Assembly (NCBI GenBank): GCA_022710715.1
Contig: JAKLGJ010000004.1
Span: forward strand, 256,166-320,165
Source of the DNA: Candidatus Omnitrophota bacterium
Lineage (GTDB): Bacteria; Omnitrophota; Gorgyraeia; Gygaellales; Profunditerraquicolaceae
Direction: 5' to 3'
Length of the DNA: 64,000 nucleotides
The position numbers and the translations under genes were made by a program. The notes beneath the pieces are model-generated. The model had not been told where the DNA came from. It ran no database searches and saw only the letters and a list, made by a program, of their open reading frames with translations. This document shows, piece by piece, positions 29,087-57,747 of the stretch (its first letter is position 1; each line of letters opens with the position of its first letter).

Positions 29087-29101
29087 AACAGGAGGTATCC
29101 C

Positions 29102-29527: not shown

Positions 29528-29529
29528 TC

Positions 29530-32571: not shown

Positions 32572-32579
32572 AGAAGCGC

Positions 32580-39892: not shown

Positions 39893-40974
39893 AGATTCCG
39901 GTTTATAAATCGGTGTACCTGTATTTGACGCATGCTTGCAACGCCAATTGCTCGTTTTGCTATCGCAGGGGATTGTTTGAGCGCAACAAGATGTCAACGC
40001 TTGGGCCTGTGAAGATGTCAAAACAGACAGCAGATGATATTCTCGATTTCTGTTTTTCGGTGCTCGAGCTGGCGCCTAAGTTCACTATTTATTTTTGGGG
40101 TGGTGAGCCTACTGTTAATTTTGAGGTTATCCAGCATGTGATGGAGAGGTATCCGCAGATGCTCTTTCATATGAACACCAACGGAGCGTTGGTCAATGAG
40201 CGTATGTATGAGTTTTTCTCAAAGCACCGCAATATCGGGATCACGTGGTCGTTTGGCAACTGTTATGAGAAATACGGCGGGCCTCAGGCTAAGGCGCAGG
40301 TGGAAGGGTGGATGCTGAAGCTGGTCAGAGAGAACCCGAATCACAACGTGAACTTCATGGTTGTGGAATATGGGAAGCTCAAAGATGACTTTGATTTTAT
40401 CGCTAAGAACATCACTCGCAATATCACGATTGACCTCGCCACAAGGCATGATCACAGCCAAGAGGATTTGGAGAGGTTCGCCGATCAGTATTTCGAGTTG
40501 CTCATTGAGCATGAGCGAGATGCTGAAATGTTTCAAACTTTAAACCCTGCGCTTCATAGCAACGCTTATGTGCGGGAGTTCGGATTAAAAGCTCAGGTCA
40601 GGGAGTTTCACTTCTGCAGGACGGGGCTTGAGCGGCTTTTTATTGATACCGAGGGCGGTATTTGGCAATGCGACAACATGTATATCTGCAGGCATAACCG
40701 GCTAGGGTCGGTTTATGACGGGATTGATTATTCAAAGTTAGATTACGTTTGGGAGATAGATGCAGATCGGGAGCAGTTTCTTGGTAGGTTCTGTGAGAAG
40801 TGTGAGCTGTATAAGCGGTGCCCTCGGAATAAATGTTTGGGGCTTAATCTTGAGCATATGGGCGATATGTTTAACCCGGAGCCGGGTTATTGCGCCATGA
40901 ACAAGGTTTTGGCGAAGGTCATTGATAAATATATCCAATTGGAAAAGGAAAAGAAGGAGGCGGTTAATGTCTAA
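39889..40974 (+). CDS. radical SAM / SPASM-twitch maturase 2
   Basis: CNANCSFC; C-terminal CRTG..WQCDNMYIC..CEKCELYKRCPRNKC. Confidence 0.85.
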   Translation: MKIPVYKSVYLYLTHACNANCSFCYRRGLFERNKMSTLGPVKMSKQTADDILDFCFSVLELAPKFTIYFWGGEPTVNFEVIQHVMERYPQMLFHMNTNGALVNERMYEFFSKHRNIGITWSFGNCYEKYGGPQAKAQVEGWMLKLVRENPNHNVNFMVVEYGKLKDDFDFIAKNITRNITIDLATRHDHSQEDLERFADQYFELLIEHERDAEMFQTLNPALHSNAYVREFGLKAQVREFHFCRTGLERLFIDTEGGIWQCDNMYICRHNRLGSVYDGIDYSKLDYVWEIDADREQFLGRFCEKCELYKRCPRNKCLGLNLEHMGDMFNPEPGYCAMNKVLAKVIDKYIQLEKEKKEAVNV

Positions 40975-43742: not shown

Positions 43743-45362
43743 GTGTATATAATGAAGACATTGGCTTCGGATAACTTATTCTCAACATCAATAGAGGTTG
43801 AGTATACAAGAAATACAAGCGTTGAATATCGACGTTCCAAAGGACAATTTTTTACGCCTTTTGATATTGCAGAATTTATGGCTGAGTGGATCGTTGAAGA
43901 CAGGCTTGGTCAGAAACTTCGAATACTGGATCCTGCCTGTGGTTTCGGAGTCTTTGAAAGGGCAATCGCCAAAGTATATAAAGGAGATACCAGCAATTTA
44001 TTATTTGATTTATGGGAGATAGACGAAAAGATACTATGCGAATTGCGAATGATTGTTTCTGATTTAGACGTCAAGGCAGATTTTTATCATGAAGATTTTT
44101 TGTCAAATGGTGAGTGGGATAAATATTATGATGGAATTATAGCCAACCCCCCTTATTACAAACATCACTATATTGATAATAAACAGAAAATTTTTGAAAG
44201 GGTATGTGTAAAATCAAATTATATTTTTAGCATTCAGACAAATATTTACTGTTGGTTTTTAATTAAATCATTACAGCTTTTGAAAGAAGGGGGAAGGTTA
44301 GCTTTTATTGTTCCTAGCGAGTTCTTGAATTCAAATTATGGGGAAAAAATAAAATCTTATTTGATTCAGTCAGGATTGATATGCCATTTGATCAATGTTC
44401 ATTTCAAGGAGAATGTTTTTGAAGACGCATTAACCACTTCTGTTATAATTCTTGCAGAAAGAAATGTTCAAATACATAAGACAATAAATTTTTATACTGT
44501 ACACGACGCCGCTTATCTAACAAACCTTTCTTCATTTTTAAAAGAGCAAAAGCATAAAGCATTTGTTACAAAGAATCTTGACCCAAAAATCAAATGGCGA
44601 AATTATTTTAATGGGTATAAAGATCATTTTGAAAACAGCGATAAGGTTGTACCGTTTGTTACGTTTGGGCGTTTTTCTCGAGGCATAGCTACTGGTTCAA
44701 ATAATTATTTTACTTTATCTAAGTTAGAGGTTGAGAAGCATAGGATTCCTTCAGAGTGTCTGTTGTCATGTATAACAAAATCATCTTTTGCCAAAAGTCG
44801 GCGTTTCGGCATTGAGGATTTCCAATCATTGGTTATTGAGGGGAAGAAGGTTTTTCTTTTTGATGGGAATCGAGCAAAAACCGAATCCGTAGCGGCATAT
44901 CTCAAGTTAGGTGTAAACGAAGGAGTTGATCAGAAATTCTTAACAAAATGTCGTGATCCTTGGTATAGTCTAGAAAAAAGAGAATGTTCGAAAATATGGG
45001 TTTCTGTTTTTGGACGTAATGGATTAAAGTTTATATGGAATGAAAGTGATTGTCTTAATTTGACGTGTTTCCATGCGTTTTCGACAACACAGATCGGTGA
45101 AGAATATTTGGGGATAATCTATCTTTATTTAAATACATCTATCGCACATTATTTTCTTGAGAAGGAAAAAAGGGAATATGGGAATGGTTTGGAAAAATAT
45201 GAGCCCAATGATATCAATAAAACCATGATCCCTGATTTTAGAAAATTAGATAAGACGCAGAAGGCTAAGTTACAAGATTTGTTTCAAAAACTTATTTTAG
45301 GTAAGGACGAAAAGAAAGTTGTGGATGAAGCAGATAGAATTATTCGTGGGCTGATCGAATAG
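43743..45362 (+). CDS. N6-adenine DNA methyltransferase, Eco57I-like gamma class
   Basis: FFTPFDIAEFM, motif I ILDPACGFG, motif IV NPPY (GIIANPPYY); 539 aa. Confidence 0.85.
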   Translation: MYIMKTLASDNLFSTSIEVEYTRNTSVEYRRSKGQFFTPFDIAEFMAEWIVEDRLGQKLRILDPACGFGVFERAIAKVYKGDTSNLLFDLWEIDEKILCELRMIVSDLDVKADFYHEDFLSNGEWDKYYDGIIANPPYYKHHYIDNKQKIFERVCVKSNYIFSIQTNIYCWFLIKSLQLLKEGGRLAFIVPSEFLNSNYGEKIKSYLIQSGLICHLINVHFKENVFEDALTTSVIILAERNVQIHKTINFYTVHDAAYLTNLSSFLKEQKHKAFVTKNLDPKIKWRNYFNGYKDHFENSDKVVPFVTFGRFSRGIATGSNNYFTLSKLEVEKHRIPSECLLSCITKSSFAKSRRFGIEDFQSLVIEGKKVFLFDGNRAKTESVAAYLKLGVNEGVDQKFLTKCRDPWYSLEKRECSKIWVSVFGRNGLKFIWNESDCLNLTCFHAFSTTQIGEEYLGIIYLYLNTSIAHYFLEKEKREYGNGLEKYEPNDINKTMIPDFRKLDKTQKAKLQDLFQKLILGKDEKKVVDEADRIIRGLIE

Positions 45363-46242
45363 CCTCAAGAAAATTTGGTTTTATTTCAGCGTGTCCACCT
45401 TTAAAGCGCACATAGTGCAATAATCTCCCACCCTCTAGTTCTTTAGTTTTACCTTCCAAATCGGGCAGTGTAATCTTTTCAGATATTTGTATTCCTTGAT
45501 TTAAGTAAATATGAATCGTTTCTTTAAACTGATTCTTGGGATTTTTTTCTATAGCGAACGCCGGAAGACCATTAAAAACCCCGTAGATTTTTTTATTTTT
45601 AATTCCTTTTATTGTAATATCTGAGCTTCCTAGTATTTCAAGAATTTTAGTAAAGGGTATTAAATAAATTGTATCGAAAAAAACTTGTACATAATAATGG
45701 GGAACACCATATGTTTTGATCCATTTCAATACAACGAGCAAGTCCTCGACCTTTGGAGTAAAGCTTAAGAACGGACGGTCATCTTTTGGGGAAAACTTTT
45801 TAGTTAAATAGGCACTCGAACGAATTTCCATGCCAGCCAAAGATTCCGGAACAATTATTTTTAGGTCATCTAATGATAATTGGCTGATATCTTTTCCCCA
45901 CTGAGATTTGTATAATTGAGGCGTGTATAGTAGAAGGTCGGGGCGTTTTCCGATGGTGTCTAGTTCGTTTTGATAGGATAAATAAAACGTTTTAAAGCCG
46001 GGATCACCTGCAATAATTTTATCCGATTTTCCATATTTAATTGGGATAAACTTTTCTGGAAAAGTTTTTTCAATGCTGGAAAATAGTAAATTTTCAGCCC
46101 AATCGCCCTGCTCGCTATGGGTTAGAAAATCAGAAAATGCTTGAGTAGGGGCAGTTCCCTTTTTTCTGTTGATATTAAGGTTAATAATATCAGTTGAAAT
46201 CTTTTCGCTTAATTCCTTTATTGATTCTTGGTAGCCATTCAT
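45340..46242 (-). CDS. candidate restriction endonuclease (convergent partner of the methyltransferase)
   Basis: 300 aa, low-GC codon usage, tail-to-tail overlap with the methyltransferase gene; no family recognised. Confidence 0.4.
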   Translation of the reverse strand: MNGYQESIKELSEKISTDIINLNINRKKGTAPTQAFSDFLTHSEQGDWAENLLFSSIEKTFPEKFIPIKYGKSDKIIAGDPGFKTFYLSYQNELDTIGKRPDLLLYTPQLYKSQWGKDISQLSLDDLKIIVPESLAGMEIRSSAYLTKKFSPKDDRPFLSFTPKVEDLLVVLKWIKTYGVPHYYVQVFFDTIYLIPFTKILEILGSSDITIKGIKNKKIYGVFNGLPAFAIEKNPKNQFKETIHIYLNQGIQISEKITLPDLEGKTKELEGGRLLHYVRFKGGHAEIKPNFLEAIRSAHE

Positions 46243-46244
46243 AA

Positions 46245-46880
46245 TTATTTTTTATCTTGCTTCTTTTTTTGGGCAACTAAAATCTCGTCTTGTAATTCCT
46301 TAATAAAATCGGCATTAGAACGCTTGGTTGCGGATTCGATATCCTTGTATTTGGATGACTGCAAATTGCCGTTATTGCTAGGATTGACGTAAATGTCCGG
46401 TAACCATGTTATGGGCATCACATAGCAATTTATTAATTCAATAGTCATATCTTCATTGAAGCTAATAAGGAAAGTCGCTATATAAAGTTTTTCTTCAGGT
46501 TTGCTTTTAAAGAACTCAAGAAGTCCTACCGCTTTTGAGATGTCATCTTTGCTGACCTTTACATCATTAACGGCAGATTTTATGTTTATGTATGCACAAT
46601 CATTATTTTCTTTAAGTGTGAGGCTAAGATCGTAAACGCTTACTTCAGAGTCAGAGGGGGTTACTTTTGTAAAACCATATTGATCTGCTTTTTCTTCAAG
46701 ATTTTGGCATATGATTTCTTCAAGTAATCTCCATACCGTTCTTCCTTTTTTCGCTTTTCTCCAGCCGTATGGGAAATGCTTACGTGTACCGATTTGTATT
46801 TTTCCTAAATCGTCGATTAGTTTCTTAAAGGTCGTTTCTAATATTTTCCGAGATTGTTCGGTTTTAAGTATTTCATTCAT
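46245..46880 (-). CDS. hypothetical protein (possible second restriction subunit)
   Basis: 211 aa, co-directional with and 3 nt from the previous gene. Confidence 0.35.
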   Translation of the reverse strand: MNEILKTEQSRKILETTFKKLIDDLGKIQIGTRKHFPYGWRKAKKGRTVWRLLEEIICQNLEEKADQYGFTKVTPSDSEVSVYDLSLTLKENNDCAYINIKSAVNDVKVSKDDISKAVGLLEFFKSKPEEKLYIATFLISFNEDMTIELINCYVMPITWLPDIYVNPSNNGNLQSSKYKDIESATKRSNADFIKELQDEILVAQKKKQDKK

Positions 46881-47096: not shown

Positions 47097-47327
47097 ATGG
47101 GAAAGAATCAGCATGTAGTAAAGACGGACGAAGGATGGGGTGTACGTGGTGAGGGGAACTCTCGATTGACCTCAGAGCATCGCACGAAGAACGCCGCCGA
47201 GAACGCCGGAAGGCAAATTGCGAAGCATCAGCAGTCAGAGCTTGTGATTCATGGGCGTGATGGGAAGATTCAGGATAAGGACAGCTTTGGCAAGGATCCG
47301 TGTCCGCCTAAAGATAGAAAACATTAA
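47097..47327 (+). CDS. DUF2188-family small protein
   Basis: VVKTDEGWGVRGEGNSR...SELVIHGRDGKIQDKDSFGKDPCPPKD matches the DUF2188 pattern. Confidence 0.6.
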   Translation: MGKNQHVVKTDEGWGVRGEGNSRLTSEHRTKNAAENAGRQIAKHQQSELVIHGRDGKIQDKDSFGKDPCPPKDRKH

Positions 47328-47360
47328 TTTCGACCAGTGGATGATTTATTTGATGAATTC

Positions 47361-47513
47361 ATGGAATACGATTTTACCATGGGTGCTGATATGGTGAAAT
47401 GTCCGCATTGCGGGGCTGGTGTGCCTTGCAGTTTATTTTTTGATGATGAGGTCGAATGCCCCAAATGCGGAAAGAAGTTTCGTAAGGAAGAAGGCGAAGA
47501 TGGCAAAGCATAG
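47361..47513 (+). CDS. small zinc-ribbon protein (50 aa; not in the ORF track)
   Basis: MEYDFTMGADMVKCPHCGAGVPC...ECPKCGKKF; its stop overlaps the ATG of the next gene. Confidence 0.4.
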   Translation: MEYDFTMGADMVKCPHCGAGVPCSLFFDDEVECPKCGKKFRKEEGEDGKA

Positions 47514-48606
47514 GTCGTTTAAGCTGGAGAAATTCGTTACGGGGGTCAACAACGACCTACTCAATGCATATTTCACTCGAAAAAATGTTACGGTGCCGGA
47601 CGGCTTTGTCTTTGATCGGAATAATATTCACGATTTTCTGGATGGTATCAGCGATGATGGTAAGCGGTCTTATATCGAGGAGGAGTTGCAGTGCATCAAC
47701 GATATCGCTGACCGGGCAAGAGGTTATCTTGAGCAGGCAAAGCGTCAATATAATATAACGGTTCAGGACGATGAGCCGTCAGAAACAACCGCTATGCGGG
47801 TTTTTCTTCATAGTGAGGAAGCGTTCTCGCTCGCCTTCGATTTTTATTTGTACGTCGTTTACTCCGAAAAATTAAGCCACCATAAATTCGATCATAACAA
47901 CTGTAACGTTGCCGAGGATCGTATAGCGTTGTTAAAGAGCGCCATTGAACAGCATTTTAAAGATAGCGGCAAAAGCGAACACTGTGATGTCAGGTACCGG
48001 ACGCATAACGGCAAGCACATTGTTTTGATCGCTCATGGCGATTTCATGAAAACGCATCTTATATTTAAGGATGGGAAAGTTGATATCGACTCATTTCGCC
48101 CAGCCAGAGAGGATATGCTTGTTTTTGACACGAGGAATTGCGTGCTCAGTGTGAACGCTGGCGGCTGGAGTGAAGCTGATAAAAAACGGTATATCGAAAT
48201 ATTTGGGAACGCTATCCTTGGCATTGATCAGGTGCCGGAAGCGACGTTTAATAATACCTTGGTAATTCTCGAACCTATTAAGAACGGCACTTTTAGCTAT
48301 ACCGGCAATGATGATGTTGAGTCTGTCGATTTAACAGAGGTTAAGGTTAAATGCAGAGGTACAAAGGTCATAAAGGTTACGATTAACTGTGGCGATGTGC
48401 GACAGGCGTTTTCGGACTTAGGGATGTCTATGCAAGACGCCGAATATGTTTCAGCGAAATTACGGTTTTGCATTAAGCGTAGCGGGAAGAAGCCCAAATC
48501 AATAACGGTTGAAATCAAGCCGCCGGAGAACACAAAATTACCCGAGAAGGCGGAAAAAGAAATTATTGAAAAATATTTGCGGGACAATGGAGTACTTTTG
48601 ACGTGA
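47500..48606 (+). CDS. hypothetical protein (operon gene 2)
   Basis: Likely start MAKHRSF at 47500, about 368 aa; no family recognised. Confidence 0.5.
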   Translation: MAKHRSFKLEKFVTGVNNDLLNAYFTRKNVTVPDGFVFDRNNIHDFLDGISDDGKRSYIEEELQCINDIADRARGYLEQAKRQYNITVQDDEPSETTAMRVFLHSEEAFSLAFDFYLYVVYSEKLSHHKFDHNNCNVAEDRIALLKSAIEQHFKDSGKSEHCDVRYRTHNGKHIVLIAHGDFMKTHLIFKDGKVDIDSFRPAREDMLVFDTRNCVLSVNAGGWSEADKKRYIEIFGNAILGIDQVPEATFNNTLVILEPIKNGTFSYTGNDDVESVDLTEVKVKCRGTKVIKVTINCGDVRQAFSDLGMSMQDAEYVSAKLRFCIKRSGKKPKSITVEIKPPENTKLPEKAEKEIIEKYLRDNGVLLT

Positions 48607-49697
48607 TGATGAACTTCATATTAAAAAATATTGAGGCTTTTCCCACAGCGTCGTTCAGCGAGAGCGAGCTGGTGCGTGTTTCAAAGACTGATTTCAACTT
48701 TCTGACCAAGCAGAAATGTTTAGACCGAATGAAGTATGACTATATGAAAGAGCCTTATTATTCGTCTGCTTTGGGGGATAATGGGAACGAGCGACGGATC
48801 AAGAAGGTTGGAAGTCGATTCTGCGCATACTCAGTGGAGTCAGCGGATAGTGCGCCTATTGAGGTAACAGAAGCGGATCTGCGGCGATATCAACTTTCTT
48901 TCCCGGCTTTGTTTGCGAAAATCAGGCAGGTTAACAAGATTGAGGGAAAGTTTCAAGAAATCCCGGAAGGGTATTTTTACATAGGGTATAAGCTATACGA
49001 CAGTTTCCGGGTTGGGTTTGTTTTTGTGCCGAAGATTGGGGACGGCAAGCTGATCAAATTCGTCGGGTTAAAGGACATTTGCAAAGATGATAAGGTTCTA
49101 GTTGTTTTCACTCCATTTACGAAGATAGAGGATATTTTATTAAGCTGGGGTTTGAGCAAGTGCAAGATAGTTACGGTTCCTCTTGCGACGGCGCTTGATT
49201 TCAAAACATTCAAATTGTCGATAGATGATCTTACTAAAGAATTTATGCCTGAGGGCGGGGCTACGGCTTTGACTAAAAAGCAGGCAAAAGACTACAAGGA
49301 CTTTGACTACAAGTGTTATGATAAAATTCATATTCCGGGAACGGCTCCAATGAAGCGGAGTAATGACCTTGAGGTGAATGGGCATAAAATCAAAATGCCG
49401 GACGGGGCGTTCAAATTGTTTATTGAACTGGGTGTTGAGCTCAAGAAAGGCAAGGGCGGGTGGCTTAAAAAGGTTGTGGAAGCCGGAAAGTATCAGATTT
49501 TTGACCGGGTTCGATCGCCGCTTCAGGGCAGTTTACTGGGCAAGGATGCCAAGAAGTTTATTGAGAATAATGCATCAAAGGATTACCGTATTTCAACGCA
49601 CCCTGATTTTATAACATTCGATAAAAAGAATCTATTGAAGCACGCCAGCGCATCGGTTCAGGCGTTGGCTAAAGGACTTCCAAGGGGGAAGCGATGA
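48603..49697 (+). CDS. hypothetical protein (operon gene 3)
   Basis: 364 aa, 4-nt overlaps with both neighbours. Confidence 0.5.
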   Translation: MMMNFILKNIEAFPTASFSESELVRVSKTDFNFLTKQKCLDRMKYDYMKEPYYSSALGDNGNERRIKKVGSRFCAYSVESADSAPIEVTEADLRRYQLSFPALFAKIRQVNKIEGKFQEIPEGYFYIGYKLYDSFRVGFVFVPKIGDGKLIKFVGLKDICKDDKVLVVFTPFTKIEDILLSWGLSKCKIVTVPLATALDFKTFKLSIDDLTKEFMPEGGATALTKKQAKDYKDFDYKCYDKIHIPGTAPMKRSNDLEVNGHKIKMPDGAFKLFIELGVELKKGKGGWLKKVVEAGKYQIFDRVRSPLQGSLLGKDAKKFIENNASKDYRISTHPDFITFDKKNLLKHASASVQALAKGLPRGKR

Positions 49698-50533
49698 GCA
49701 AGGCAGTCATTAGTCGATATTTATCTCCTACTACATACGAAGCCGTGCGGAATGATTTTGTTTTCTTGATTGATAAGATTAAAGAGTCGGGTTTTGAATA
49801 CGGACTGCAGATTCGAGATGATTATTTGAATCTATATTATAAAGGTAACAGCATAGGGAAAATATCCTATAAAACTGGTCAAAAAGTTTATGAGGTAAAA
49901 ATACACCGCAAGTTTGTGGATGATTCAATTATTAAGCGTTTTTCGCCGTCGGTTGTTAAGGACTACGCTGTTTTCGTCATTCCCAGCAAGCAACTGCATC
50001 CGCTTTTTAGTTCAAAAAACTTATTGTCTATGGGGCAGAGGGTGAAGGCTGTCCAATTCCAAGAAGAAATTGTCTTTGAGCAAATGCTTTTGACTGACAA
50101 CGCTAACAGGGACGATTTAATCATTATAGATAGGCAAGTTGTTGATCGGGATCATGACACTAAAATGGATCTTCTGGCGCTTAAGCAAAAAGAGCCGGGC
50201 AAGTATCAGTTTTGTGTCATTGAGGTCAAACTTGGCAACAATCAGGAGTTGAAAGAGGACGTTTTTCAACAGCTCAAAGGATACGGTGAACGCATTACAA
50301 GAAATTTCCCTCAGTATAAAAAAAGTTACGAATTGAACTTCGCTCAAAAGCAGGGGCTTGGACTTTTGCCGGGCAGTTTGAAAATTGAAATTGTAGAAGG
50401 TGTGTTCGGCATAGTAGTGGTAGGAGGATATTCCGGTCTTGCCGAGAAAAGCATTTCTGAGCTTAAGGCAAAGCATCCCGATATAAGGGTGTTGCATATA
50501 AAAAATGAAATCAGGTTTGATAATTTGATATGA
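49694..50533 (+). CDS. PD-(D/E)xK (RecB-like) nuclease-fold protein
   Basis: D...D-x13-ExK arrangement (DTKMDLLAL...VIEVKLG) followed by QQLKGY (QxxxY-like). Confidence 0.5.
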   Translation: MSKAVISRYLSPTTYEAVRNDFVFLIDKIKESGFEYGLQIRDDYLNLYYKGNSIGKISYKTGQKVYEVKIHRKFVDDSIIKRFSPSVVKDYAVFVIPSKQLHPLFSSKNLLSMGQRVKAVQFQEEIVFEQMLLTDNANRDDLIIIDRQVVDRDHDTKMDLLALKQKEPGKYQFCVIEVKLGNNQELKEDVFQQLKGYGERITRNFPQYKKSYELNFAQKQGLGLLPGSLKIEIVEGVFGIVVVGGYSGLAEKSISELKAKHPDIRVLHIKNEIRFDNLI

Positions 50534-51822
50534 AGCTAATTATTCATAGAGGTACAGCTGAAATTGGTGGGACCTGTGTAGAGGTCTTTACGGAGAAAAG
50601 CCGGATCGTGATCGATTTCGGACTGCCGCTTGTTAATGCCAAAAAAGAACCATTTGATTCAAAGGTTTTGATAGGTAAATCTCCGGAAGAGTTGAGGGGA
50701 TTAAAAATCCTTCCTAGCGTGAGCGGCCTCTATAAAGATGAGGAGAGGTCGGTTGACGCCATTCTCATATCGCATTCTCACATGGATCACTACGGATTGC
50801 TTCGCTATGTGCACCCCGGCATACCTATATATATGAGCGAGGGTGCCAAGACGTTGGTTGAGGTGTCGGATATATTTACGCCTCACAAAACCGGCAAAAT
50901 AAATACCAAAATCATAGATAAACGAAAGAAGTTAACCATTGGGGATTTTGAAATCTTCCCTTATCTGGTAGATCACTCCGCTTTTGATGCTCTTGCTTTT
51001 ATGATTAAAGCCGATGGGAAGAAGATTTTTTACTCGGGAGATTTCAGGGGGCATGGGAGAAAAAGCGAGCTTTATAGGCGCATGGTGTCTAAGCCGCCGA
51101 AAGATATCGATTGTTTGCTTTTAGAAGGCTCGATGATCGGTCGGGGAGAGCAATTATTCAAAGATGAGCAGGCGGTGCAAGCTCGTATGGAAAAAGTCTT
51201 AAAGGCGACCCCCAATATAAAGTTTTTATTTGCCTCATCTCAGAACATTGACCGAATCGTTTCGGCGTATAAGGCTTGTCTTAAAACAAACCATGTATTC
51301 GTGATTGATATTTACACTGCGTATATTCTTGATTGTCTGAGGAAGGTATCAAAAAATATCCCGCAGTTTAATTGGAGGAATATTAGGGTTAAGTTTATGA
51401 AAAGCCATGCGGATTCATTGGCGCAGAACGCTTCAGTTAAACTTCTTTATGCTTATAACTCCCGTAAGATTGAGATTGATGAGATTAATGCGATCAAGGA
51501 TAAGGTCTTGATGCTTGCACGGGATAATTCTATTTTCCCAATACTGGTGAAGAATATTAAGGGCATAGAGGGAGCGAAGATTATCTATTCAATGTGGGAA
51601 GGATATTTGACGGATAAATTTAAGGATTTTGTCGCTCAGAAAGGGTTGGATATTGAAACCGTTCATACGAGCGGTCATGCCACCATACAGGATTTAAAGG
51701 TTTTTGCCGAAGCGTTAAATCCGGGCAAGTTGATTCCGATTCACACTTTTGAGTCTGGGCAATACCCGAAACTTTTTAGGAACGTACAAATATTACAGGA
51801 TCGGGAAGTATTTAACGTTTAA
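50530..51822 (+). CDS. metallo-beta-lactamase / beta-CASP family nuclease
   Basis: MBL motif ILISHSHMDHYG, additional D/H motifs, C-terminal beta-CASP-like HTSGHA; 430 aa. Confidence 0.8.
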   Translation: MKLIIHRGTAEIGGTCVEVFTEKSRIVIDFGLPLVNAKKEPFDSKVLIGKSPEELRGLKILPSVSGLYKDEERSVDAILISHSHMDHYGLLRYVHPGIPIYMSEGAKTLVEVSDIFTPHKTGKINTKIIDKRKKLTIGDFEIFPYLVDHSAFDALAFMIKADGKKIFYSGDFRGHGRKSELYRRMVSKPPKDIDCLLLEGSMIGRGEQLFKDEQAVQARMEKVLKATPNIKFLFASSQNIDRIVSAYKACLKTNHVFVIDIYTAYILDCLRKVSKNIPQFNWRNIRVKFMKSHADSLAQNASVKLLYAYNSRKIEIDEINAIKDKVLMLARDNSIFPILVKNIKGIEGAKIIYSMWEGYLTDKFKDFVAQKGLDIETVHTSGHATIQDLKVFAEALNPGKLIPIHTFESGQYPKLFRNVQILQDREVFNV

Positions 51823-51846
51823 GGGTAGGGTCAAGGGGAGAAAAAT

Positions 51847-53103
51847 ATGAGAGACCCGCATCAGAATATTTTCTTTTATTACCGTGGGCCCTCTAAGAAC
51901 AGGGAACTGTCATTGTATGATTTTCAGGTAGAGGATAACACGACAAAGAGCTTGATCAATGTCTTTGAATTTTGTTGCCAAGCTGGGTTCGAGGATCTAT
52001 TGAATGGTTTTTTGAAGGCGGTCAATGCCCCTAAGCGACCGGTTGCTTCCTTTAGATTACAGAAAGGGTTAGATGACAGCAGGACAGATGCCTTGATTGA
52101 TCTTGCAGATTACAATATTCATATTGAATCAAAGGTTAGGGCAAGGTTGGATATTGGTCAGATTGAGCGCCACTTAACGTCTATCGATCCGCAAGACATA
52201 TTGGTTGTTATAACGAATCATCGGCAGGATAAAGAAGAATTGAGCAGGGTTAGAGACAGGCGGCTCAGGTATTTAGATTGGGCTGAAGTACATAGAATAT
52301 GCCTGAGGGCTGGTGAGATGATCCGTAACGATAAGCGCATGGTTGCGATCCTGCATTTAATTGAGCAGTTTATTGATTACATGGAGGTTGTGGTTATGAC
52401 CGAATTTAATGGATTCAAGAACTCGGATTTTGATTTTTGGGTGGACCCGAACCCATATTATGTGCCAATTCTTCGGAAGAAGCTGGAGGCTTTGGCAACC
52501 ATTATTAAGGAAAAACTTCCACGGGATATCGGGGATGAATATTCCTTTATTAAACCCGGCAACATATCACGAAGCGGTAAAGATGAGCGGTTTGCGTGGG
52601 TAGCGATCAAAAGACCTAAGGATGGTAAGGATATATTTAATCAGTGCAATTTCACGATTGAGGTATCAAAAAGCTGTCTTGATATAAATACGGTTATTCG
52701 TAATGGCCGCACTTATCAGCCAAAGACAGCGATCGGTGTCTTTTTTAATAAAGTTTCAAATAATCCAGAGAAATTTTTGCAGGTCATCAGGGGTGTTAAA
52801 AAAGAAGCGAGGATCGTCATTTCTAAAAGGTTGCCCAAGACGGGTAAGCGTATTATGCCGGGCAATGAGAAATGGGTGAAATTTTTTGATATGAAGCTGT
52901 GTGACATAACCAGCAAGCAAGATGTTCTTTATTTATGCGAGGTATTAAAGAAGGCAGATAAAGAACCCGGGGCGCCCGGAATACACTTCAGGCGTTCAAT
53001 TGATAGGGGCTCAAAAGTGCTTACTGAGCCGGAAGCGTTGGAAACTGAAATCATAAGCACCATTACTGAGTTTAAGCCGATATTGGTCTACTTGGGGGGA
53101 TAG
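51847..53103 (+). CDS. protein with N-terminal RecB-like PD-(D/E)xK nuclease domain
   Basis: E (ENTTKSLINVFE) ... D (DALIDLAD) ... IHIESK (ExK) ... QIERHL; 418 aa. Confidence 0.45.
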   Translation: MRDPHQNIFFYYRGPSKNRELSLYDFQVEDNTTKSLINVFEFCCQAGFEDLLNGFLKAVNAPKRPVASFRLQKGLDDSRTDALIDLADYNIHIESKVRARLDIGQIERHLTSIDPQDILVVITNHRQDKEELSRVRDRRLRYLDWAEVHRICLRAGEMIRNDKRMVAILHLIEQFIDYMEVVVMTEFNGFKNSDFDFWVDPNPYYVPILRKKLEALATIIKEKLPRDIGDEYSFIKPGNISRSGKDERFAWVAIKRPKDGKDIFNQCNFTIEVSKSCLDINTVIRNGRTYQPKTAIGVFFNKVSNNPEKFLQVIRGVKKEARIVISKRLPKTGKRIMPGNEKWVKFFDMKLCDITSKQDVLYLCEVLKKADKEPGAPGIHFRRSIDRGSKVLTEPEALETEIISTITEFKPILVYLGG

Positions 53104-53140
53104 TCGAGGAAAGGGTTGGGATCGTGGATTTAGGGGGTCA

Positions 53141-53330
53141 AAACGGGCATTTTGCTGGATTTTTGCCGGTGTTGTGATAAAATACCTTTATTGTACGGCA
53201 GGGTAGTGTCGAGTGGATCCCCTAAGGATATCAGCGCTCCCATACTACGTTTACGGTAGAGTTTTATAAGTAGGCTTATTTCAAGGGGTTGTAGGGTTCG
53301 CCTACCGTCCACGACTACCCGTTTTGATAC
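53141..53330 (+). ncRNA. candidate structured non-coding RNA closed by a 10-bp long-range stem
   Basis: TCAAAACGGG (about 53141) pairs with CCCGTTTTGA (about 53320); internal complementary pairs GGGTAGT/ACTACCC, ACGGTAG/CTACCGT, GTAGG-GTTCG-CCTAC hairpin; no protein ORF. Confidence 0.3.
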
Positions 53331-53353
53331 CAAATCGAAACAATATAAAGACA

Positions 53354-53392
53354 ATAGCTGGTTTCCTTGAATGGAGGCCAGCTATTCTTTTT
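53354..53392 (+). terminator. rho-independent terminator
   Basis: ATAGCTGG-loop-CCAGCTAT followed by TCTTTTT. Confidence 0.6.
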
Positions 53393-53458: not shown

Positions 53459-53764
53459 ATGAGAATCCTTCAGGGGATATTGTCAGAGAGCAAGGAATAT
53501 TATCAAGACTTAAAGAAGAAAATAGCGAAGAAATTGTTGGTTCTCCCTAGGGGGAGTATTAAAGAAAGGGTGATCGCAGGGAAGAAGTACTATTATTTGC
53601 AGTATCGCAAAGCGGAAAAAATAGTGCAGAAGTATTTAGGCCGGCAAAAACCCGAGGTTCTCACAAAGCAGATAAAGGAACGCGGAATCTTAAAAGAGGA
53701 ACTCAAAAAGGTGAATGAAGCTTTGAAAATCATCATAAGATCCGAAGGCAGAAAACATGTTTGA
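53459..53764 (+). CDS. small basic protein, putative antitoxin/regulator of the downstream nucleotidyltransferase
   Basis: 101 aa, 8-nt overlap with the downstream gene. Confidence 0.4.
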   Translation: MRILQGILSESKEYYQDLKKKIAKKLLVLPRGSIKERVIAGKKYYYLQYRKAEKIVQKYLGRQKPEVLTKQIKERGILKEELKKVNEALKIIIRSEGRKHV

Positions 53765-54443
53765 ATCCATTAAAAGGATTTTAACAGTTTTTGCCGACAA
53801 TGAGCTGTTTGAGGAGGGAGTTGAACTTATAGGCAGTTGGTGTTTTAGTCTATACCAACAACACCTCGGCGCAAAAGAATTCCCTTTGATGACGCAAGAT
53901 ATCGATTTTCTGATCCCCAGCCCTTTTCATGGCAAAGAGCATTTGGGTTTCATTAAACAGTTGGAAGATTTAGGTTTTCAGCCTGATTTCAAGAGAGATG
54001 GATCTCTTTTTCTTTGGAATTCTGAGTTAAAAATAGAGTTTATAACCACCGAGAAGGGTGCGGGAACCGATAAGGCAATTAAGATCAAGAAATTAGGCAT
54101 AGATGCTATACCCCTAAGGCATGTTGGTTTTTTATTGGAGGATCCCATTACTATTATTGATAAAGGCATCAAGATAACTGTTCCGGCGCCGGAGCGTTTT
54201 TGTCTTCAAAAGCTTATCATTGCCCCAAGAAGAAGAAAAATAGAAAAGAGATTAAAGGATATACAGCAAGCTGTCTGTACTTCTGTAATTGTTGATTCGA
54301 AGGAAATAAGGGATTTATTCCGATCTTTACCTGCGAAATGGCGTCGAGATGTGTTGAGGATGCTTGAGGTGGCTAAGACAGAATTGCCGTTGTTGAGAGA
54401 AGATGTAGAAAAACTGGTTCTTACACTACAACATGATAAATAA
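53757..54443 (+). CDS. pol-beta superfamily nucleotidyltransferase, AbiEii/DUF1814-like
   Basis: hG[GS]...DhD motif: LIGSWCFSLYQQ...TQDIDFLI resembles GGTAL...SxDLDF of AbiEii-type toxins. Confidence 0.55.
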   Translation: MFESIKRILTVFADNELFEEGVELIGSWCFSLYQQHLGAKEFPLMTQDIDFLIPSPFHGKEHLGFIKQLEDLGFQPDFKRDGSLFLWNSELKIEFITTEKGAGTDKAIKIKKLGIDAIPLRHVGFLLEDPITIIDKGIKITVPAPERFCLQKLIIAPRRRKIEKRLKDIQQAVCTSVIVDSKEIRDLFRSLPAKWRRDVLRMLEVAKTELPLLREDVEKLVLTLQHDK

Positions 54444-55433: not shown

Positions 55434-55739
55434 ATGCGTCCCAAGAAGACCCGATGGGTCAAATGCGTCCCCGGCGAAAGGTGTTTCAAACCCATGTGCA
55501 AGCCTTTAAGCAAGGTTAAAGTCGTATGCCTGTCGCTTGATGAATTCGAAGCGGTGCGGCTTGCCTGTCTTGAAGGATTGAAACAAATAGACGCCGCAAA
55601 GCTGATGAAGGTCTCGCGGCCGACTTTTTCCCGGATTTTGACCTCTGCCCAGCAAAAGGTGGCTGATGGACTGGTCAATATCAAGGCAATCCGTATTGAA
55701 GGCGGGTGTTGCCAGATCAGGAGGGGGATCAAAAAATGA
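55434..55739 (+). CDS. DUF134 (UPF0251) family predicted DNA-binding protein
   Basis: PKKTRWVKCVPGERCFKPMCKP ... sigma-r4-like HTH (EFEAVRLACLEGLKQIDAAKLMKVSRPTFSRIL). Confidence 0.7.
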   Translation: MRPKKTRWVKCVPGERCFKPMCKPLSKVKVVCLSLDEFEAVRLACLEGLKQIDAAKLMKVSRPTFSRILTSAQQKVADGLVNIKAIRIEGGCCQIRRGIKK

Positions 55740-56908
55740 AAGCATGGAAGAAGTTCCTGTATAGTACCGTTATCTTTCTGGGTTGTTTCTATCTGCCGGT
55801 AGAGAATATGCGTTTTAACAATGCGGTTTTTGAAGCGCTTGCTTTGGTTAAATGGTACGCGCGTGAGCATGTGTTATTGTGTCTGGTGCCGGCATTCTTT
55901 ATTGCCGGGGCGATCTCGGTATTCGTCAGCCAGGCGTCAGTGTTAAAATATTTCGGCGCTAAAGCCAATAAATTTCTCTCTTACAGCGTGGCTGCGGTTT
56001 CCGGCACCATATTGGCGGTGTGTTCTTGTACGGTGTTGCCGCTTTTCGGGGGCATTTATAAAAGAGGGGCGGGACTCGGGCCTGCCAGCGCTTTCCTTTA
56101 TTCCGGGCCGGCCATCAATGTTCTTGCGATCATTCTTACTGCGCGGATCTTAGGCTGGCAGCTGGGCCTGGCCAGAGCTATCGGCGCCGTGGTTTTCAGC
56201 GTGGTGATCGGTTTATTGATGCATCTGATCTTTTATAAGGAAGAGTGCAGCCGTCAGGCATGCGGTGATTTTAACGCGGGTCAAGCGAAAGAACCGCGTT
56301 CATTGGGGCAGACGGTTTTGTATTTTGCTTCTCTGGTCGCTATCCTGGTATTCGCGAACTGGGGGAAACCGCTGGAAGGCGATCAGGGTATCTGGGCGCT
56401 TATTTATCAGTATAAATGGTGGATCACCGGCGTGTCTTCAGTCAGCCTCGCGGTCATGCTGGGCAGATGGTTCAAAAAAGAGGAATTAAAAGACTGGACG
56501 CAATCCACCTGGGGATTTGCTCTGCAGATCCTGCCGCTTCTGCTTGGAGGAGTGCTGGTCTCCGGGTTCCTCCTGGGCAGAGTAGGTCATGAGGGCGTCA
56601 TTCCGTCGCGTTTTGTGGTCGCGTTAGTCGGCGGCAATTCCGTGTGGGCTAATTTCTTTTCCGCGATTGTCGCGACGTTCATGTATTTTGCCACGCTTAC
56701 CGAAGTGCCGATCCTGCAGGGGTTGATGAATGCCGGCATGGGCAAAGGACCGGCATTGGCGTTGTTGCTGGCAGGGCCTGCGTTGAGCCTGCCGAGCATG
56801 CTGGTGTTGCGCAGCATTTTGGGGACGAGAAAGACCGTTGTATACGTCGTCCTCGTGGTGATGATGGCTACGTTTTCGGGAATGCTTTTTGGTTTTATCG
56901 CAAAGTAG
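55733..56908 (+). CDS. DUF318/ArsP-like permease (putative organoarsenical efflux)
   Basis: Multi-TM; conserved CSC in [12 protein letters not shown] as in the ArsP (TPFCSC) family; likely start MKAWKKF. Confidence 0.65.
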
Positions 56909-56916
56909 GAGGAGAT

Positions 56917-57747
56917 ATGGAAGGAAAAGACATCAAGAAAATGGTCAAAGAAGGGTATGCTAAAGTCGCCAGGCAGAATGTTTCCTGCTGCTCTGCCGGT
57001 TGTTCGTGCGCGGGCGCACCGCAGGCGAAAGATATCAGTAAAATCGTCGGATACAGCGAGTCTGAAATGAACGCCGTTCCCGAGGGTGCCAATCTTGGTC
57101 TGGGTTGCGGCAATCCCGTCGCTATCGCCTCGCTCAAAGAGGGGGAGGTCGTATTGGATCTGGGCAGCGGCGCGGGATTCGACGCTTTCCTCGCCTCGCC
57201 GAAAGTCGGGAAAACAGGGAAGGTTATCGGCGTTGATATGACCGAAGAAATGATCGAGAAAGCCAGGCGGAACGCCCGGAAAAGCGATTATGCCAACGTG
57301 GAATTCAGATTGGGCGAGATCGAGCGACTGCCGGTGGATAGCGCGTCGGTGGATGCGATCATTTCAAATTGCGTGATCAATCTTTCTCCGGATAAAGAGA
57401 GCGTTTTTAAAGAAGCGTACCGGGTGCTGAAGCCCGGAGGCAGATTGATGGTCTCGGATCTGGTTTTGACCGGAAAACTGCCGGCGCTGATCAAGGATTC
57501 TGTTGAGGCTTATGTGGGATGCCTGGCCGGCGCGGCAATGAAAGAAGAGTACCTCGGGTTTATAGAAAAAGCCGGCTTCAAAGATATAAAAGTCGTCAGC
57601 CAGACGCATTACCCGATAGAAGCTATGGCAAATGACGCAACGGCGCAGGCAGTCATGGGTGATGCGAAGATCAGTAAGCAGGATATGAAAGCGCTGGAGA
57701 AAGCCGTGGTCAGCGTGAAGGTTCTGGCATTCAAGCCCGAACGCTGA
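56917..57747 (+). CDS. arsM: arsenite S-adenosylmethionine methyltransferase
   Basis: N-terminal Cys pairs ([11 protein letters not shown]), AdoMet motif [11 protein letters not shown], further Cys (CVINLS, GCLAG) typical of ArsM. Confidence 0.85.

What the first reader, a model, noticed from the sequence alone, without database searches (positions are those of the whole stretch)
47361..53103. Six-gene, nuclease-rich operon of unknown function in a low-GC island: candidate novel defence system
Six co-directional genes, with start/stop overlaps or gaps of at most about 25 nt, show low-GC codon usage. They encode a 50-aa zinc-ribbon protein, a 368-aa unknown, a 364-aa unknown, a 279-aa PD-(D/E)xK nuclease-fold protein (D...ExK, QxxxY), a 430-aa MBL/beta-CASP nuclease (HSHMDH, HTSGHA), and a 418-aa protein with an N-terminal RecB-like E/D/ExK/Q nuclease domain. 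The operon sits between a type II-like R-M pair and an AbiEii-like module. That is the classic genomic context of anti-phage systems. I do not recognise the combination as Gabija, Hachiman, Shedu, Septu, Lamassu, Zorya, Druantia, DISARM, BREX, Wadjet, CBASS, Thoeris or Dpd.
Basis: partly seen in the sequence, partly recalled or inferred. Interest (0 to 1): 0.8.

Follow-up and report, generated by a model that had tools for sequence, protein, structure and literature searches.

The report
Mosaic prophage island of candidate defence modules
The six genes are real, but they are three independently mobile, uncharacterised modules (a DNA-binding pair and two nuclease modules) stacked in the cargo end of a prophage, so they are several candidate anti-phage genes and not one new six-gene system.

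Summary
The six co-directional ORFs exist as described. They lie in a 42.6 % GC block, against 48.8 % for the prophage and 56 % for the host flank. The block is the accessory right arm of a serine-integrase prophage in a Candidatus Omnitrophota genome.

The six-gene order is not conserved. Comparison with about 150 related loci splits the block into three modules.
- **Module A:** DUF2188 (PADLOC candidate PDC-S16), then g2 (368 aa) and g3 (364 aa). A g3-like gene follows g2 in all 33 loci where the contig continues, across several phyla. The pair lies next to R-M genes and integrases. g2 has an RdgC/CENP-N/YejK DNA-binding fold. g3 combines a restriction-endonuclease-like fold, without a conserved catalytic motif, with an OmpR-type winged helix.
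- **Module B:** g4 (conserved D…ExK…QxxxY) and g5 (beta-CASP MBL nuclease, all metal motifs invariant). They occur together without A in five other contexts. g4 occurs alone in two.
- **Module C:** g6 (invariant E/D/ExK/Q) is stand-alone, in 283 metagenome loci with heterogeneous neighbours.

The zinc-ribbon gene is a local insertion. Nineteen related phage contigs lack all of these genes. None of the modules is a known PADLOC system. A defence role is plausible from context only and is untested.

The parts
47097..47327 (+). DUF2188 small protein (76 aa), frequent third partner of module A; equals PADLOC candidate PDC-S16
   Evidence: Pfam DUF2188 at 3e-23. PADLOC PDC-S16 at 4.5e-35 over its full length. 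Found in 15 of 42 g2 loci, usually directly upstream of g2, and downstream of g3 in L001 and L031.
47337..47513 (+). g1, 58-aa CxxC...CxxC zinc-ribbon protein; a lineage-specific insertion, not a conserved member of any module
   Evidence: Weak zinc-ribbon hits only. It lies in a ~150-nt insertion into the DUF2188-to-g2 spacer, which is ~25 nt in L007, L018, L021, L023 and L027. L020 carries a different ~970-nt insert at the same point. Its 90 % cluster has 8 members.
47500..48606 (+). g2, 368 aa, module A: predicted DNA-binding protein with an RdgC/CENP-N/CENP-L/YejK-type fold; no enzymatic motif recognised
48603..49697 (+). g3, 364 aa, module A: basic protein (pI 9.5) with a restriction-endonuclease-like fold domain lacking a conserved D..ExK, and a C-terminal OmpR/PhoB-type winged-helix DNA-binding domain
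49694..50533 (+). g4, 279 aa, module B: putative PD-(D/E)xK nuclease
   Evidence: D159, E177, K179, Q193 and Y197 are invariant in 30 homologues. The family has 348 clusters. Weak PADLOC PDC-S18 hit at 2.4e-5 over the motif region. No Pfam or PDB confirmation.
50530..51822 (+). g5, 430 aa, module B: beta-CASP metallo-beta-lactamase-fold nuclease
   Evidence: Lactamase_B_2 at 9e-16 and RMMBL at 1e-5. RNase J subfamily at 1.6e-19, far below its cutoff. PDB 2az4 at 1e-19 and RNase J at 2e-12. HxHxDH, H149, D171, H379, H383 and H405 are invariant.
51847..53103 (+). g6, 418 aa, module C: N-terminal PD-(D/E)xK-type nuclease motif set plus an uncharacterised C-terminal half; stand-alone gene
   Evidence: The family has 225 representatives at 50 % clustering. 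Q27, E29, D81, E94, K96 and Q105 are invariant. Four of 37 members weakly match PDDEXK_4. It occurs in 283 metagenome loci whose neighbours are heterogeneous.
53130..53354 (-). Small conserved minus-strand gene (up to 74 aa), convergent with g6; marks the end of the variable cargo region in related prophages
   Evidence: A 190-nt block is 74-97 % identical in the 8 distinct related loci aligned. The reading frame is open in the three sequences translated (window, L001, L018). Substitutions are biased to one codon position, 125/64/48. It has no Rfam or PADLOC match.
53353..53386 (+). Terminator-like hairpin (14 bp stem followed by a T run) downstream of the block
   Evidence: This is a consensus scan only.
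43743..46242 (.). Type II R-M pair upstream: N6-adenine MTase (43743..45362, +) and AccI-family REase (45340..46242, -), 34-35 % GC
53459..54443 (+). 101-aa gene plus NTP_transf_8 nucleotidyltransferase (228 aa); TA-like pair, not AbiEii by Pfam
8693..10432 (-). Large serine integrase at the left end of the prophage that carries the block, next to tRNA-Ser at 8719..8806
   Evidence: PHROG integrase at 4e-102. Primase, TerL, portal and tail J-like genes follow at 14938..36583. tRNA genes.

Best explanation
The block is not one system. It is the accessory cargo arm of an integrated tailed prophage in a Candidatus Omnitrophota genome. The prophage has a serine integrase at 8.7 kb and structural genes up to about 43 kb. 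At least three independently mobile modules have been stacked head to tail in this arm, behind a type II R-M pair.

**Module A: DUF2188, g2 and g3.** This is the only strictly conserved unit.
- g2 is a DNA-binding protein of the RdgC/CENP-N/YejK fold class.
- g3 is a basic DNA-binding protein with a degenerate restriction-endonuclease fold and an OmpR-type winged helix.
- The two genes overlap and always travel together, so they very probably form a complex.
- Inferred mechanism: the pair binds DNA and acts as a non-enzymatic sensor or excluder of foreign or damaged DNA. The precedents are lambda RexA and the YejK-like sensors of PANGU systems.

**Module B: g4 and g5.** g4 carries a PD-(D/E)xK motif and g5 is a beta-CASP MBL nuclease. 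Inferred mechanism: a two-nuclease effector pair in which g4 makes or recognises a break and g5 processes nucleic-acid ends.

**Module C: g6.** This is a stand-alone PD-(D/E)xK-motif protein with an unknown C-terminal domain. Inferred mechanism: a single-gene nuclease.

**g1** is a small zinc-ribbon gene inserted locally.

**What is shown:** the gene content, the motifs, the folds of g2 and g3, the independent distribution of the modules, and the prophage-cargo and R-M context.

**What is inferred:** that the modules protect the lysogen against other phages or plasmids, that g2 and g3 form a complex, and how each module acts.
For: **Mosaic structure**
- A g3-like gene follows g2 in 33 of 33 loci with room downstream. 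The loci come from MAGs labelled Omnitrophota, Elusimicrobiota, Margulisiibacteriota, Neomarinimicrobiota, Ignavibacteria, Chloroflexota and Brevinema, and from 4 viral contigs.
- g4-g5 follow g3 in only 3 of 42 g2 loci, all close relatives of the window (L007, L008, L020). g6-like genes are in 3 others.
- g4-g5 occur without g2-g3 in L014, L015/16, L145 and L147. In L088 they occur in the order g5-g4.
- g4 occurs alone in L146 and L148.
- The neighbours of g6 fall into many unrelated families.

**Cargo status**
- Prophage genes are confirmed.
- The 9 related viral contigs that continue at least 5 kb past the last shared gene lack DUF2188 and g2-g6 there. None of the 19 contigs carries them anywhere in the fetched sequence.
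- Related Omnitrophota prophages carry different genes between g3 and the conserved small gene at the right end.

**Defence context**
- An AccI-type R-M pair lies directly upstream.
- DUF2188 equals PADLOC candidate PDC-S16. Lau et al. (bioRxiv 10.1101/2022.04.27.489752) cite it as predicted to be defence-linked.
- Among 135 non-redundant neighbours of g2-g3, the commonest Pfam families are N6_N4 MTases (10), ResIII (6), SWI2/SNF2 (4) and serine recombinases (4), with GmrSD in 2. PADLOC type III MTase models match 5 of them.
- AIPR and AbiEi_2 flank the pair in L003.

**Fold precedents**
- RexA shares the RdgC/Iml3/Chl4 fold (PMC11077077).
- YejK-like NAP sensors with a partner give phage defence (bioRxiv 10.64898/2026.04.06.716658).

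**Catalytic motifs** are conserved in g4, g5 and g6.
Against: - No experiment or phenotype exists for any of these genes.
- g2 and g3 have no recognisable enzymatic site, and the restriction-endonuclease-like domain of g3 lacks conserved catalytic residues. A defence effector is therefore not evident in module A.
- In L010 the pair lies inside a metal-efflux gene cluster flanked by transposases, which is not a defence island.
- The context evidence is biased, because mobile elements carry R-M genes anyway.
- The PD-(D/E)xK assignment for g4 rests on motifs alone.
- g6 and g5-like genes recur together in L058 (g6, a 323-aa gene, g5, tightly packed) and in L086/L088. Modules B and C may therefore cooperate more than 'independent' implies.
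- Tight overlaps in the window (ATGA at g3/g4 and g4/g5) are compatible with functional coupling of A and B in this lineage.
- Prophage cargo can also be anti-defence or regulatory.
Confidence: 0.6

Rival explanations
1. The six genes are one integrated, novel six-gene defence system, in which the unknown proteins direct three nucleases.
For: The genes are co-directional, with overlaps or a 24-nt gap and no strong internal terminator. The g2-g5 order recurs in L007, L008 and L020. g6 recurs near g5-like genes in L058 and L086/L088.
Against: No other fetched locus has all six genes. L007, L008 and L020 are 85-90 % identical relatives of the window and lack g6. g2-g3, g4-g5, g4 alone and g6 each occur separately in many unrelated contexts. 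g1 is a local insertion.
Confidence: 0.05
2. Module A is not immunity. It is a maintenance or regulatory module of mobile elements. A nucleoid-associated-type DNA binder (g2) and a sequence-specific winged-helix protein (g3) would silence, organise or regulate the element, or modulate recombination or the lysis-lysogeny switch, as RdgC and RexA can. The nucleases of B and C would then serve phage DNA metabolism, such as host DNA degradation, recombination or end processing.
For: g2 and g3 are predicted DNA binders with no catalytic motif. RdgC-like proteins are encoded by lytic phages. RexA also biases the lambda switch (PMC11077077). ICE- and plasmid-borne NdpA-type NAPs regulate transfer (PMC8565334, listed). 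The pair lies next to serine recombinases in 5 loci and inside a metal-resistance cluster in L010.
Against: The pair is absent from 19 phage contigs of the same lineage, so it is dispensable for the phage life cycle. It moves between unrelated element types and phyla as a self-contained pair. R-M genes recur next to it, and it is linked to the defence-island candidate DUF2188/PDC-S16.
Confidence: 0.2
3. Some or all modules are toxin-antitoxin or addiction cassettes that stabilise the element. A nuclease toxin (g4, g5 or g6) or a DNA-binding toxin (g2) would be held in check by a DNA-binding partner (g3, DUF2188). Any phage defence would be incidental.
For: The architecture is two overlapping genes, one with a winged-helix DNA-binding domain. 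TA genes (ParE, PIN, Gp49/HTH) surround g4-g5 homologues. The modules are scattered across mobile elements.
Against: Proteins of 360-430 aa are large for classical type II TA pairs. There is no match to known toxin or antitoxin families in Pfam, NCBIfam or PADLOC. TA function and abortive-infection defence are not mutually exclusive.
Confidence: 0.1
4. The cargo is counter-defence carried by the phage. For example, g5 could be an MBL phosphodiesterase that destroys immune signalling nucleotides, as Apyc1 does, and g2 could be an RdgC-like inhibitor of RecA-dependent or DNA-sensing host immunity.
For: The location is prophage cargo. A faint precomputed Anti-Pycsar_Apyc1 hit is recorded on the g5 homologue in L014. 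RdgC inhibits RecA (as summarised in PMC11077077).
Against: g5 has the beta-CASP insertion and the RMMBL motif typical of nucleic-acid nucleases. Its best matches are RNase J and EF2904. The modules also occur in non-phage contexts next to R-M systems. Only one viral contig carries g4-g5.
Confidence: 0.05

Closest known systems
PANGU systems (YejK-like nucleoid-associated protein sensor plus partner effector; bioRxiv 10.64898/2026.04.06.716658)
   Different: g2 has no NdpA/NA37 sequence signature. Its best fold matches are CENP-N, Chl4 and RdgC, not YejK. The partner g3 is a DNA-binding protein and not a recognisable toxin. None of the ten published partner clusters is described as such a protein. 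A third gene, DUF2188, often accompanies the pair.
Lambda RexA/RexB prophage exclusion system
   Same: Both are prophage-encoded, expressed from accessory DNA, and have two genes. One component has the RdgC/Iml3/Chl4-type DNA-binding fold (PMC11077077; g2 hits).
RdgC (recombination-associated DNA-binding ring protein) and phage RdgC-like proteins
   Different: There is no sequence similarity. g2 has an extra N-terminal helical region resembling the CENP-N N-terminus, and an obligate partner gene.
Beta-CASP MBL nucleases (RNase J, aCPSF1, EF2904/2az4, Cas14 of type VII CRISPR)
   Same: g5 has the HxHxDH motif, the later His and Asp motifs and the RMMBL C-terminal motif.
   Different: g5 scores far below every curated NCBIfam cutoff (69.8 bits against 400 for the RNase J subfamily). 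It is paired with a PD-(D/E)xK-motif protein on mobile elements. Its substrate is unknown.
Trypsin-MBL (HamM-type) nuclease-protease modules of Hachiman, AVAST and Lamassu (PMC12799240)
   Same: Both involve an MBL-fold nuclease encoded as an accessory gene in defence loci.
   Different: [quoted passage not shown]
PADLOC candidate families PDC-S16, PDC-S18, PDC-S11 and PDC-S26
   Same: The DUF2188 gene is a full-length member of PDC-S16 (4.5e-35). The motif region of g4 weakly resembles PDC-S18 and PDC-S11. A few g6 homologues weakly hit PDC-S26 and PDC-M15A.
   Different: These are unvalidated candidates. The g4 and g6 hits are superfamily-level only. g2, g3 and g5 have no PADLOC match at all.

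Membership tests
PANGU (YejK-like NAP defence systems) | The sensor protein carries the NdpA/NA37 domain (IPR007358/PF04245), detectable by HMM | tested here: not met
PANGU (YejK-like NAP defence systems) | The NAP gene is in an operon with a partner gene, less than 40 bp apart | tested here: met
   g2 and g3 overlap. A g3-like gene follows g2 in 33 of 33 loci.
PANGU (YejK-like NAP defence systems) | The partner is a toxic effector activated by the released NAP, and the system gives phage defence | not testable with these tools
   g3 shows only DNA-binding and degenerate nuclease folds. Activity and relocalisation need experiments.
Lambda Rex exclusion system | A RexA-type protein with the RdgC-like split globular and dimerisation domains | tested here: inconclusive
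Lambda Rex exclusion system | A membrane partner (RexB) with transmembrane helices | tested here: not met
   No segment in g1-g6 reaches transmembrane-like hydropathy. The maximum is 1.6, against 2.67 for the ArsP control.
Beta-CASP metallo-beta-lactamase nucleases (g5) | MBL motifs HxHxDH, H and D, plus the beta-CASP/RMMBL C-terminal His motifs | tested here: met
   Lactamase_B_2 and RMMBL hits. H82, H84, D86, H87, H149, D171, H379, H383 and H405 are invariant. Matches to 2az4 and RNase J.
RNase J (NCBIfam TIGR00649 / RnjA) | Score above the curated family cutoff | tested here: not met
   69.8 bits against a cutoff of 400, and 56.7 against 820.
PD-(D/E)xK nuclease superfamily (g4) | A conserved D...(D/E)xK motif on a restriction-endonuclease fold | tested here: inconclusive
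   The motif D159...E177-x-K179...Q193xxxY197 is invariant.
PD-(D/E)xK nuclease superfamily (g6) | A conserved E...D...ExK...Q motif set, with similarity to a PDDEXK family | tested here: inconclusive
   E29, D81, E94, K96 and Q105 are invariant. Only 4 of 37 members match PDDEXK_4, with a best E-value of 4e-4. There is no PDB hit.
Type II restriction-modification (for g4 or g6 as REases) | A cognate DNA methyltransferase encoded next to the nuclease | tested here: not met
   There is no MTase within 47097..53103. The only MTase nearby pairs with the AccI REase. g6 neighbours elsewhere are heterogeneous. Only L014 has a Dam-like MTase upstream of g4.
   The gene at 53757..54443 is NTP_transf_8 (PF12281), with no PADLOC hit.
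PADLOC PDC-S16 candidate (DUF2188) | A full-length match to the PDC-S16 profile | tested here: met
   4.5e-35, residues 1-72 against profile positions 1-74 of 75.
Any known multi-gene defence system in PADLOC-DB v2.0.0 | Component HMM hits for at least the core genes | tested here: not met
   g2, g3, g5 and g6 give no hits. g1 and g4 give only weak, non-specific hits. Newer DefenseFinder and PADLOC releases were not available.

The most novel reading that the evidence does not exclude
DUF2188-g2-g3 is a new, widespread, non-enzymatic DNA-sensing module of mobile elements. An RdgC/CENP-N-fold clamp (g2) would be paired with a degenerate-nuclease, winged-helix partner (g3). The module would act as a portable sensor that licenses interchangeable effector cassettes inserted directly behind g3: g4-g5(-g6) in this window, other genes plus g6 in L018 and L042, and other cargo elsewhere. 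This would extend the 'NAP as infection sensor' principle of PANGU and RexA to a sequence-unrelated family. It would also give DUF2188/PDC-S16 a function.
Probability: 0.15. Interest if true: 0.75.

Novelty: new variant of a known kind. Interest (0 to 1): 0.45.

Why it matters
If the modules are protective, the window yields three separate leads rather than one.
- **A conserved DNA-binding pair.** It has an RdgC/CENP-N-type fold and is linked to DUF2188, a small protein already flagged as a defence-island candidate with no assigned function. Testing it could show whether sensing by nucleoid-type DNA binders, recently shown for YejK-like proteins and suspected for lambda RexA, is a broader principle.
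- **A PD-(D/E)xK plus beta-CASP nuclease pair.** I found no published defence system built on this combination. The MBL nucleases in the defence papers I read are ComEC-like and paired with proteases.
- **A widespread single-gene nuclease family.**

The result also shows how a tightly packed, co-directional gene array in a prophage hotspot can look like an operon-encoded system when it is a stack of independent cassettes. This matters for automated discovery of 'multi-gene systems'.

All carriers are uncultivated lineages, so the practical value depends on heterologous tests.

Tried and rejected
1. **Conserved 190-nt block as a structured RNA.** I considered whether the block right after g6 (53129..53321) is a structured RNA component. 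Rfam found nothing and RNAalifold gave weak structures on both strands. An open minus-strand frame and a codon-position bias show it is a small protein gene. Rejected.
2. **A conserved upstream partner for g6.** About half of the homologues have a tightly coupled upstream gene, but these fall into many unrelated families. Rejected as a fixed partner.
3. **g2-g3 as an accessory of a conserved upstream type III-like R-M or helicase system.** The upstream genes are often MTases or ResIII helicases, but they are not one family and the gaps vary. Rejected as a fixed larger system.
4. **The 323-aa gene before g5 in L058 as a g4 homologue.** hhalign probability is 0.3 %. It shows only a similar D...ExK string. 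Unresolved.
5. **g4 and g6 as paralogues.** hhalign gives no similarity.
6. **Sequence-profile searches of g2, g3, g4 and g6 against all PDB chains.** No meaningful hits.
7. **Fold search against AFDB50.** The library was not available.
8. **The Burroughs and Aravind 2020 paper on DUF2188.** It is not held. I rely on how Lau et al. cite it.
9. **A literature search for 'PDC-S16'.** No papers.

Full report
**1. The observation**

| Gene | Coordinates | Length |
|---|---|---|
| g2 | 47500..48606 | 368 aa |
| g3 | 48603..49697 | 364 aa |
| g4 | 49694..50533 | 279 aa |
| g5 | 50530..51822 | 430 aa |
| g6 | 51847..53103 | 418 aa |

- The junctions are overlaps (14 nt, GTGA/TGATG, ATGA, ATGA) or a 24-nt gap with a GGGGAG ribosome-binding site.
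- GC is 39-44 % per gene and 42.6 % for the block 47097..53103. The prophage body is 48.8 %, the host flank 56.0 % and the neighbouring R-M pair 34-35 %.
- Exact copies are annotated in Candidatus Omnitrophota MAGs as HOW42333-HOW42339. All are 'hypothetical' except 'MBL fold metallo-hydrolase' and 'DUF2188 domain-containing protein'.
- Each gene has homologues elsewhere, so none is a chance ORF.

**2. Where the block sits**

The block lies in a prophage. The region from about 8.7 to 43.7 kb carries these genes:
- a large serine integrase (8693..10432, minus strand; PHROG integrase 4e-102), next to tRNA-Ser;
- a primase;
- a ParB-methyltransferase;
- the terminase large subunit (2e-204);
- the portal protein;
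- a J-like tail protein.

To the right of the last conserved phage genes (about 43.7 kb) come, in order:
- a type II MTase and an AccI-family REase;
- an unknown 211-aa gene;
- a DUF2188 gene (47097..47327);
- the six genes;
- a small conserved minus-strand gene (53130..53354);
- an NTP_transf_8 nucleotidyltransferase pair, which is not AbiEii;
- arsenic-resistance genes.

A scan of viral contigs with the phage radical-SAM protein (40922..42148) returned 19 contigs of the same phage lineage (70-91 % identity). Fifteen of them carry at least two of the three small genes at 42.4-43.4 kb. None carries DUF2188 or g2-g6 in the fetched sequence. Nine of them continue at least 5 kb past the last shared gene. 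The block is therefore accessory cargo, not phage core.

**3. The gene order is not conserved**

I collected about 150 related loci through the tools. I scored them with tblastn and blastp against the window proteins.

- **g2 and g3**
  - g2 was found in 42 loci.
  - Of the 33 loci with at least 1 kb downstream, 31 have a detectable g3 at 50 % coverage or more.
  - The other two (L032, L036) have a truncated or divergent g3-like gene in the same position.
  - That makes 33 of 33.
- **DUF2188** is present in 15 of the 42 loci. It is usually directly upstream of g2, and lies downstream of g3 in L001 and L031.
- **g4-g5** follow g3 only in L007, L008 and L020. These are 85-90 % identical relatives of the window, and they lack g6.
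- **g6** lies about 2 kb after g3 in L018, L019 and L042, with two different genes in between.
- **g4-g5 without g2-g3**
  - L014: behind a Dam-like MTase, among TA genes.
  - L015/16: in an integrase-bearing element with a type ISP enzyme.
  - L145: a viral contig.
  - L147.
  - L088: in the reversed order g5-g4.
- **g4 alone** occurs in L146 and L148.
- **g6 relatives** occur in 283 metagenome loci. About half have a tightly coupled upstream gene, but those genes belong to many unrelated families.
- **g1** lies in a ~150-nt insertion into the DUF2188-to-g2 spacer, which is about 25 nt in five relatives. L020 has a different ~970-nt insertion at the same point.

The block is a stack of at least three cassettes: A (DUF2188, g2, g3), B (g4, g5) and C (g6).

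One caveat applies. g6 and g5-like genes recur together in L058 (166-aa gene, g6, 323-aa gene, g5, tightly packed) and in L086/L088. B and C may therefore have some affinity beyond chance clustering. I put the chance that they cooperate in the window at about 0.3.

**4. What the proteins are**

*g2*
- The family is tightly conserved: 92 clusters, length near 368 aa, 45-90 % identity, with an invariant N-terminal MxKHRSF.
- It has no Pfam, NCBIfam, PADLOC or PDB sequence match.
- Among viral models it matches phage RdgC proteins.
- This is the DNA-binding fold class to which lambda RexA was recently assigned (PMC11077077).

*g3*
- The model has pLDDT 85.8.
- From the secondary structure I place the nuclease-like fold at about residues 100-200 and the winged helix at about 255-345. 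This placement is my inference.
- No acidic or lysine residue is conserved in the nuclease-like part across 44 homologues, so that domain is probably inactive.
- g3 is basic (pI 9.5), and none of g1-g6 has a transmembrane segment.

*g4*
- D159, E177, K179, Q193 and Y197 are invariant.
- There is only a weak PADLOC PDC-S18 hit.
- There is no Pfam or PDB confirmation.

*g5*
- It is a beta-CASP MBL nuclease.
- All metal and beta-CASP motifs are invariant in 12 homologues.

*g6*
- Q27, E29, D81, E94, K96 and Q105 are invariant in 37 homologues.
- Four of 37 members weakly match PDDEXK_4.
- Its C-terminal half is unassigned.

*DUF2188*
- The gene is a full-length match to PADLOC's unvalidated candidate PDC-S16 (4.5e-35).

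**5. Context of module A**

I took 135 non-redundant ORFs within 4.5 kb of g2-g3 in 25 loci. The commonest Pfam families among them are listed below.

| Family | Members |
|---|---|
| N6_N4 DNA methylases | 10 |
| ResIII | 6 |
| SWI2/SNF2 | 4 |
| Large serine recombinases | 4 |
| GmrSD | 2 |

- PADLOC type III MTase models also match 5 of the 135.
- AIPR and AbiEi_2 flank the pair in L003.
- The upstream neighbours are not one conserved family, so the pair is autonomous.
- In L010 the pair lies between P-II and cation-efflux genes, flanked by transposases. This is a counter-example to a pure defence-island pattern.

**6. Mechanism**

Shown: the composition, the motifs, the folds of g2 and g3, the strict g2-g3 linkage, the independent mobility of the modules, and the prophage-cargo and R-M context.

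Inferred:
- **g2 and g3 form a DNA-binding complex.** The evidence is overlapping genes, co-inheritance and two DNA-binding folds.
- **The complex senses or occludes foreign or damaged DNA.** There are two precedents.
  - RexA in lambda lysogens.
  - The YejK-like sensors of PANGU systems. These leave the degraded nucleoid and activate a partner effector (bioRxiv 10.64898/2026.04.06.716658).
- **g4-g5 and g6 are nuclease effectors** acting on invading nucleic acid or in abortive infection.

I give the combined statement a confidence of 0.6. The mosaic part is about 0.9 and the defence function about 0.5-0.55. The rivals are a mobile-element regulatory or maintenance role for A with phage DNA metabolism for B and C (0.2), TA or addiction cassettes (0.1), the single six-gene system (0.05), and counter-defence cargo (0.05).

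**7. Comparison with known systems**

- **Module A.** It works most like PANGU or Rex but is not a member of either.
  - The NdpA/NA37 signature is absent.
  - The partner is neither a recognisable toxin nor a membrane protein.
- **Module B.** It differs from the published trypsin-MBL (HamM) modules.
  - Those use ComEC-like MBLs with a fused protease.
  - g5 scores far below the RNase J family cutoffs.
- **Modules B and C as R-M systems.** They are not classical R-M, because no cognate MTase is present.
- **PADLOC-DB v2.0.0.** Nothing in it covers g2, g3, g5 or g6. Newer model sets could not be run.

**8. Verdict**

These are uncharacterised, nuclease-rich, mobile, R-M-adjacent genes, but they are a mosaic of candidate modules and not a six-gene system. 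Defence is inferred from context only.
- Novelty: a new variant of a known kind, namely candidate defence cassettes built from known folds in a known kind of hotspot.
- The DUF2188-g2-g3 trio is the most interesting lead.
- Interest: 0.45.

Noticed in passing
window 53130..53354 (- strand): A small gene (up to 74 aa, pI 10.1) lies convergent with g6. It is conserved at 74-97 % nucleotide identity in the 8 distinct related loci aligned, which is higher than the neighbouring coding genes. It marks the right end of the variable cargo, lies next to a tRNA gene in L001, and is present twice in L018/L019. It has no Rfam or PADLOC match, and its function is unknown.
   Followed up: partly
window 47328..47499; L020 9029..10000: The ~25-nt spacer between DUF2188 and g2 is an insertion hotspot. 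The window carries a 58-aa zinc-ribbon gene there. L020 and L025 carry an unrelated ~310-aa gene. A terminator-like hairpin (47407..47432) lies inside the zinc-ribbon ORF.
   Followed up: partly
window 38672..42148: Three consecutive genes in the prophage late region (406, 361 and 408 aa) appear to be radical-SAM paralogues. The last matches PHROG radical-SAM families at 1.5e-35. tblastn finds ~20 % identical copies just upstream in related viral contigs. This is unusual cargo next to tail genes.
   Followed up: no
window 55706..57747; L023 6996..11239: An ArsP permease and an ArsM-like methyltransferase lie to the right of the small conserved gene in the window. In L023 the homologous arsenic genes lie between g3 and that small gene, inside the prophage cargo. 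The right boundary of the element in the window is therefore uncertain.
   Followed up: partly
window 7321..7409 and 8719..8806: Two tRNA-Ser genes (anticodons CGA and GGA) flank a 262-aa ORF. The second lies next to, and overlaps the 3' end of, the serine integrase ORF, so it is probably the prophage attachment site. The Rfam gathering-threshold scan reported no tRNA here although ARAGORN did.
   Followed up: no
L029, L036, L039, L040 (all from 'Bacterium isolate R3-B46'): One genome carries four divergent g2 paralogues (52 %, 33 %, 28 % and 28 % identity to the window protein). Two are on the same contig, and a g3-like gene follows g2 in L029 and L036. L039 and L040 end at the contig edge, so their partner is unseen. 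This suggests diversification of the pair within a genome.
   Followed up: partly
L015 7591..8004; L147 5570..6004: A DUF6508 gene (137-144 aa) overlaps the start of the g4 homologue in two independent g4-g5 loci. It may be a third component of module B in some lineages.
   Followed up: no
window 43743..46880: The AccI-type R-M pair (34-35 % GC) and the unknown 211-aa minus-strand gene next to it have much lower GC than both the prophage and the six genes. This suggests a separate and more recent acquisition.
   Followed up: no
P0303-P0322 and P0328-P0330 (g3 homologues): A sub-family of ~251-aa proteins covers only two-thirds of g3. Three proteins of 469-632 aa share only ~39 % of g3. Part of g3 therefore also occurs in proteins of quite different length; which part was not checked.
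   Followed up: no
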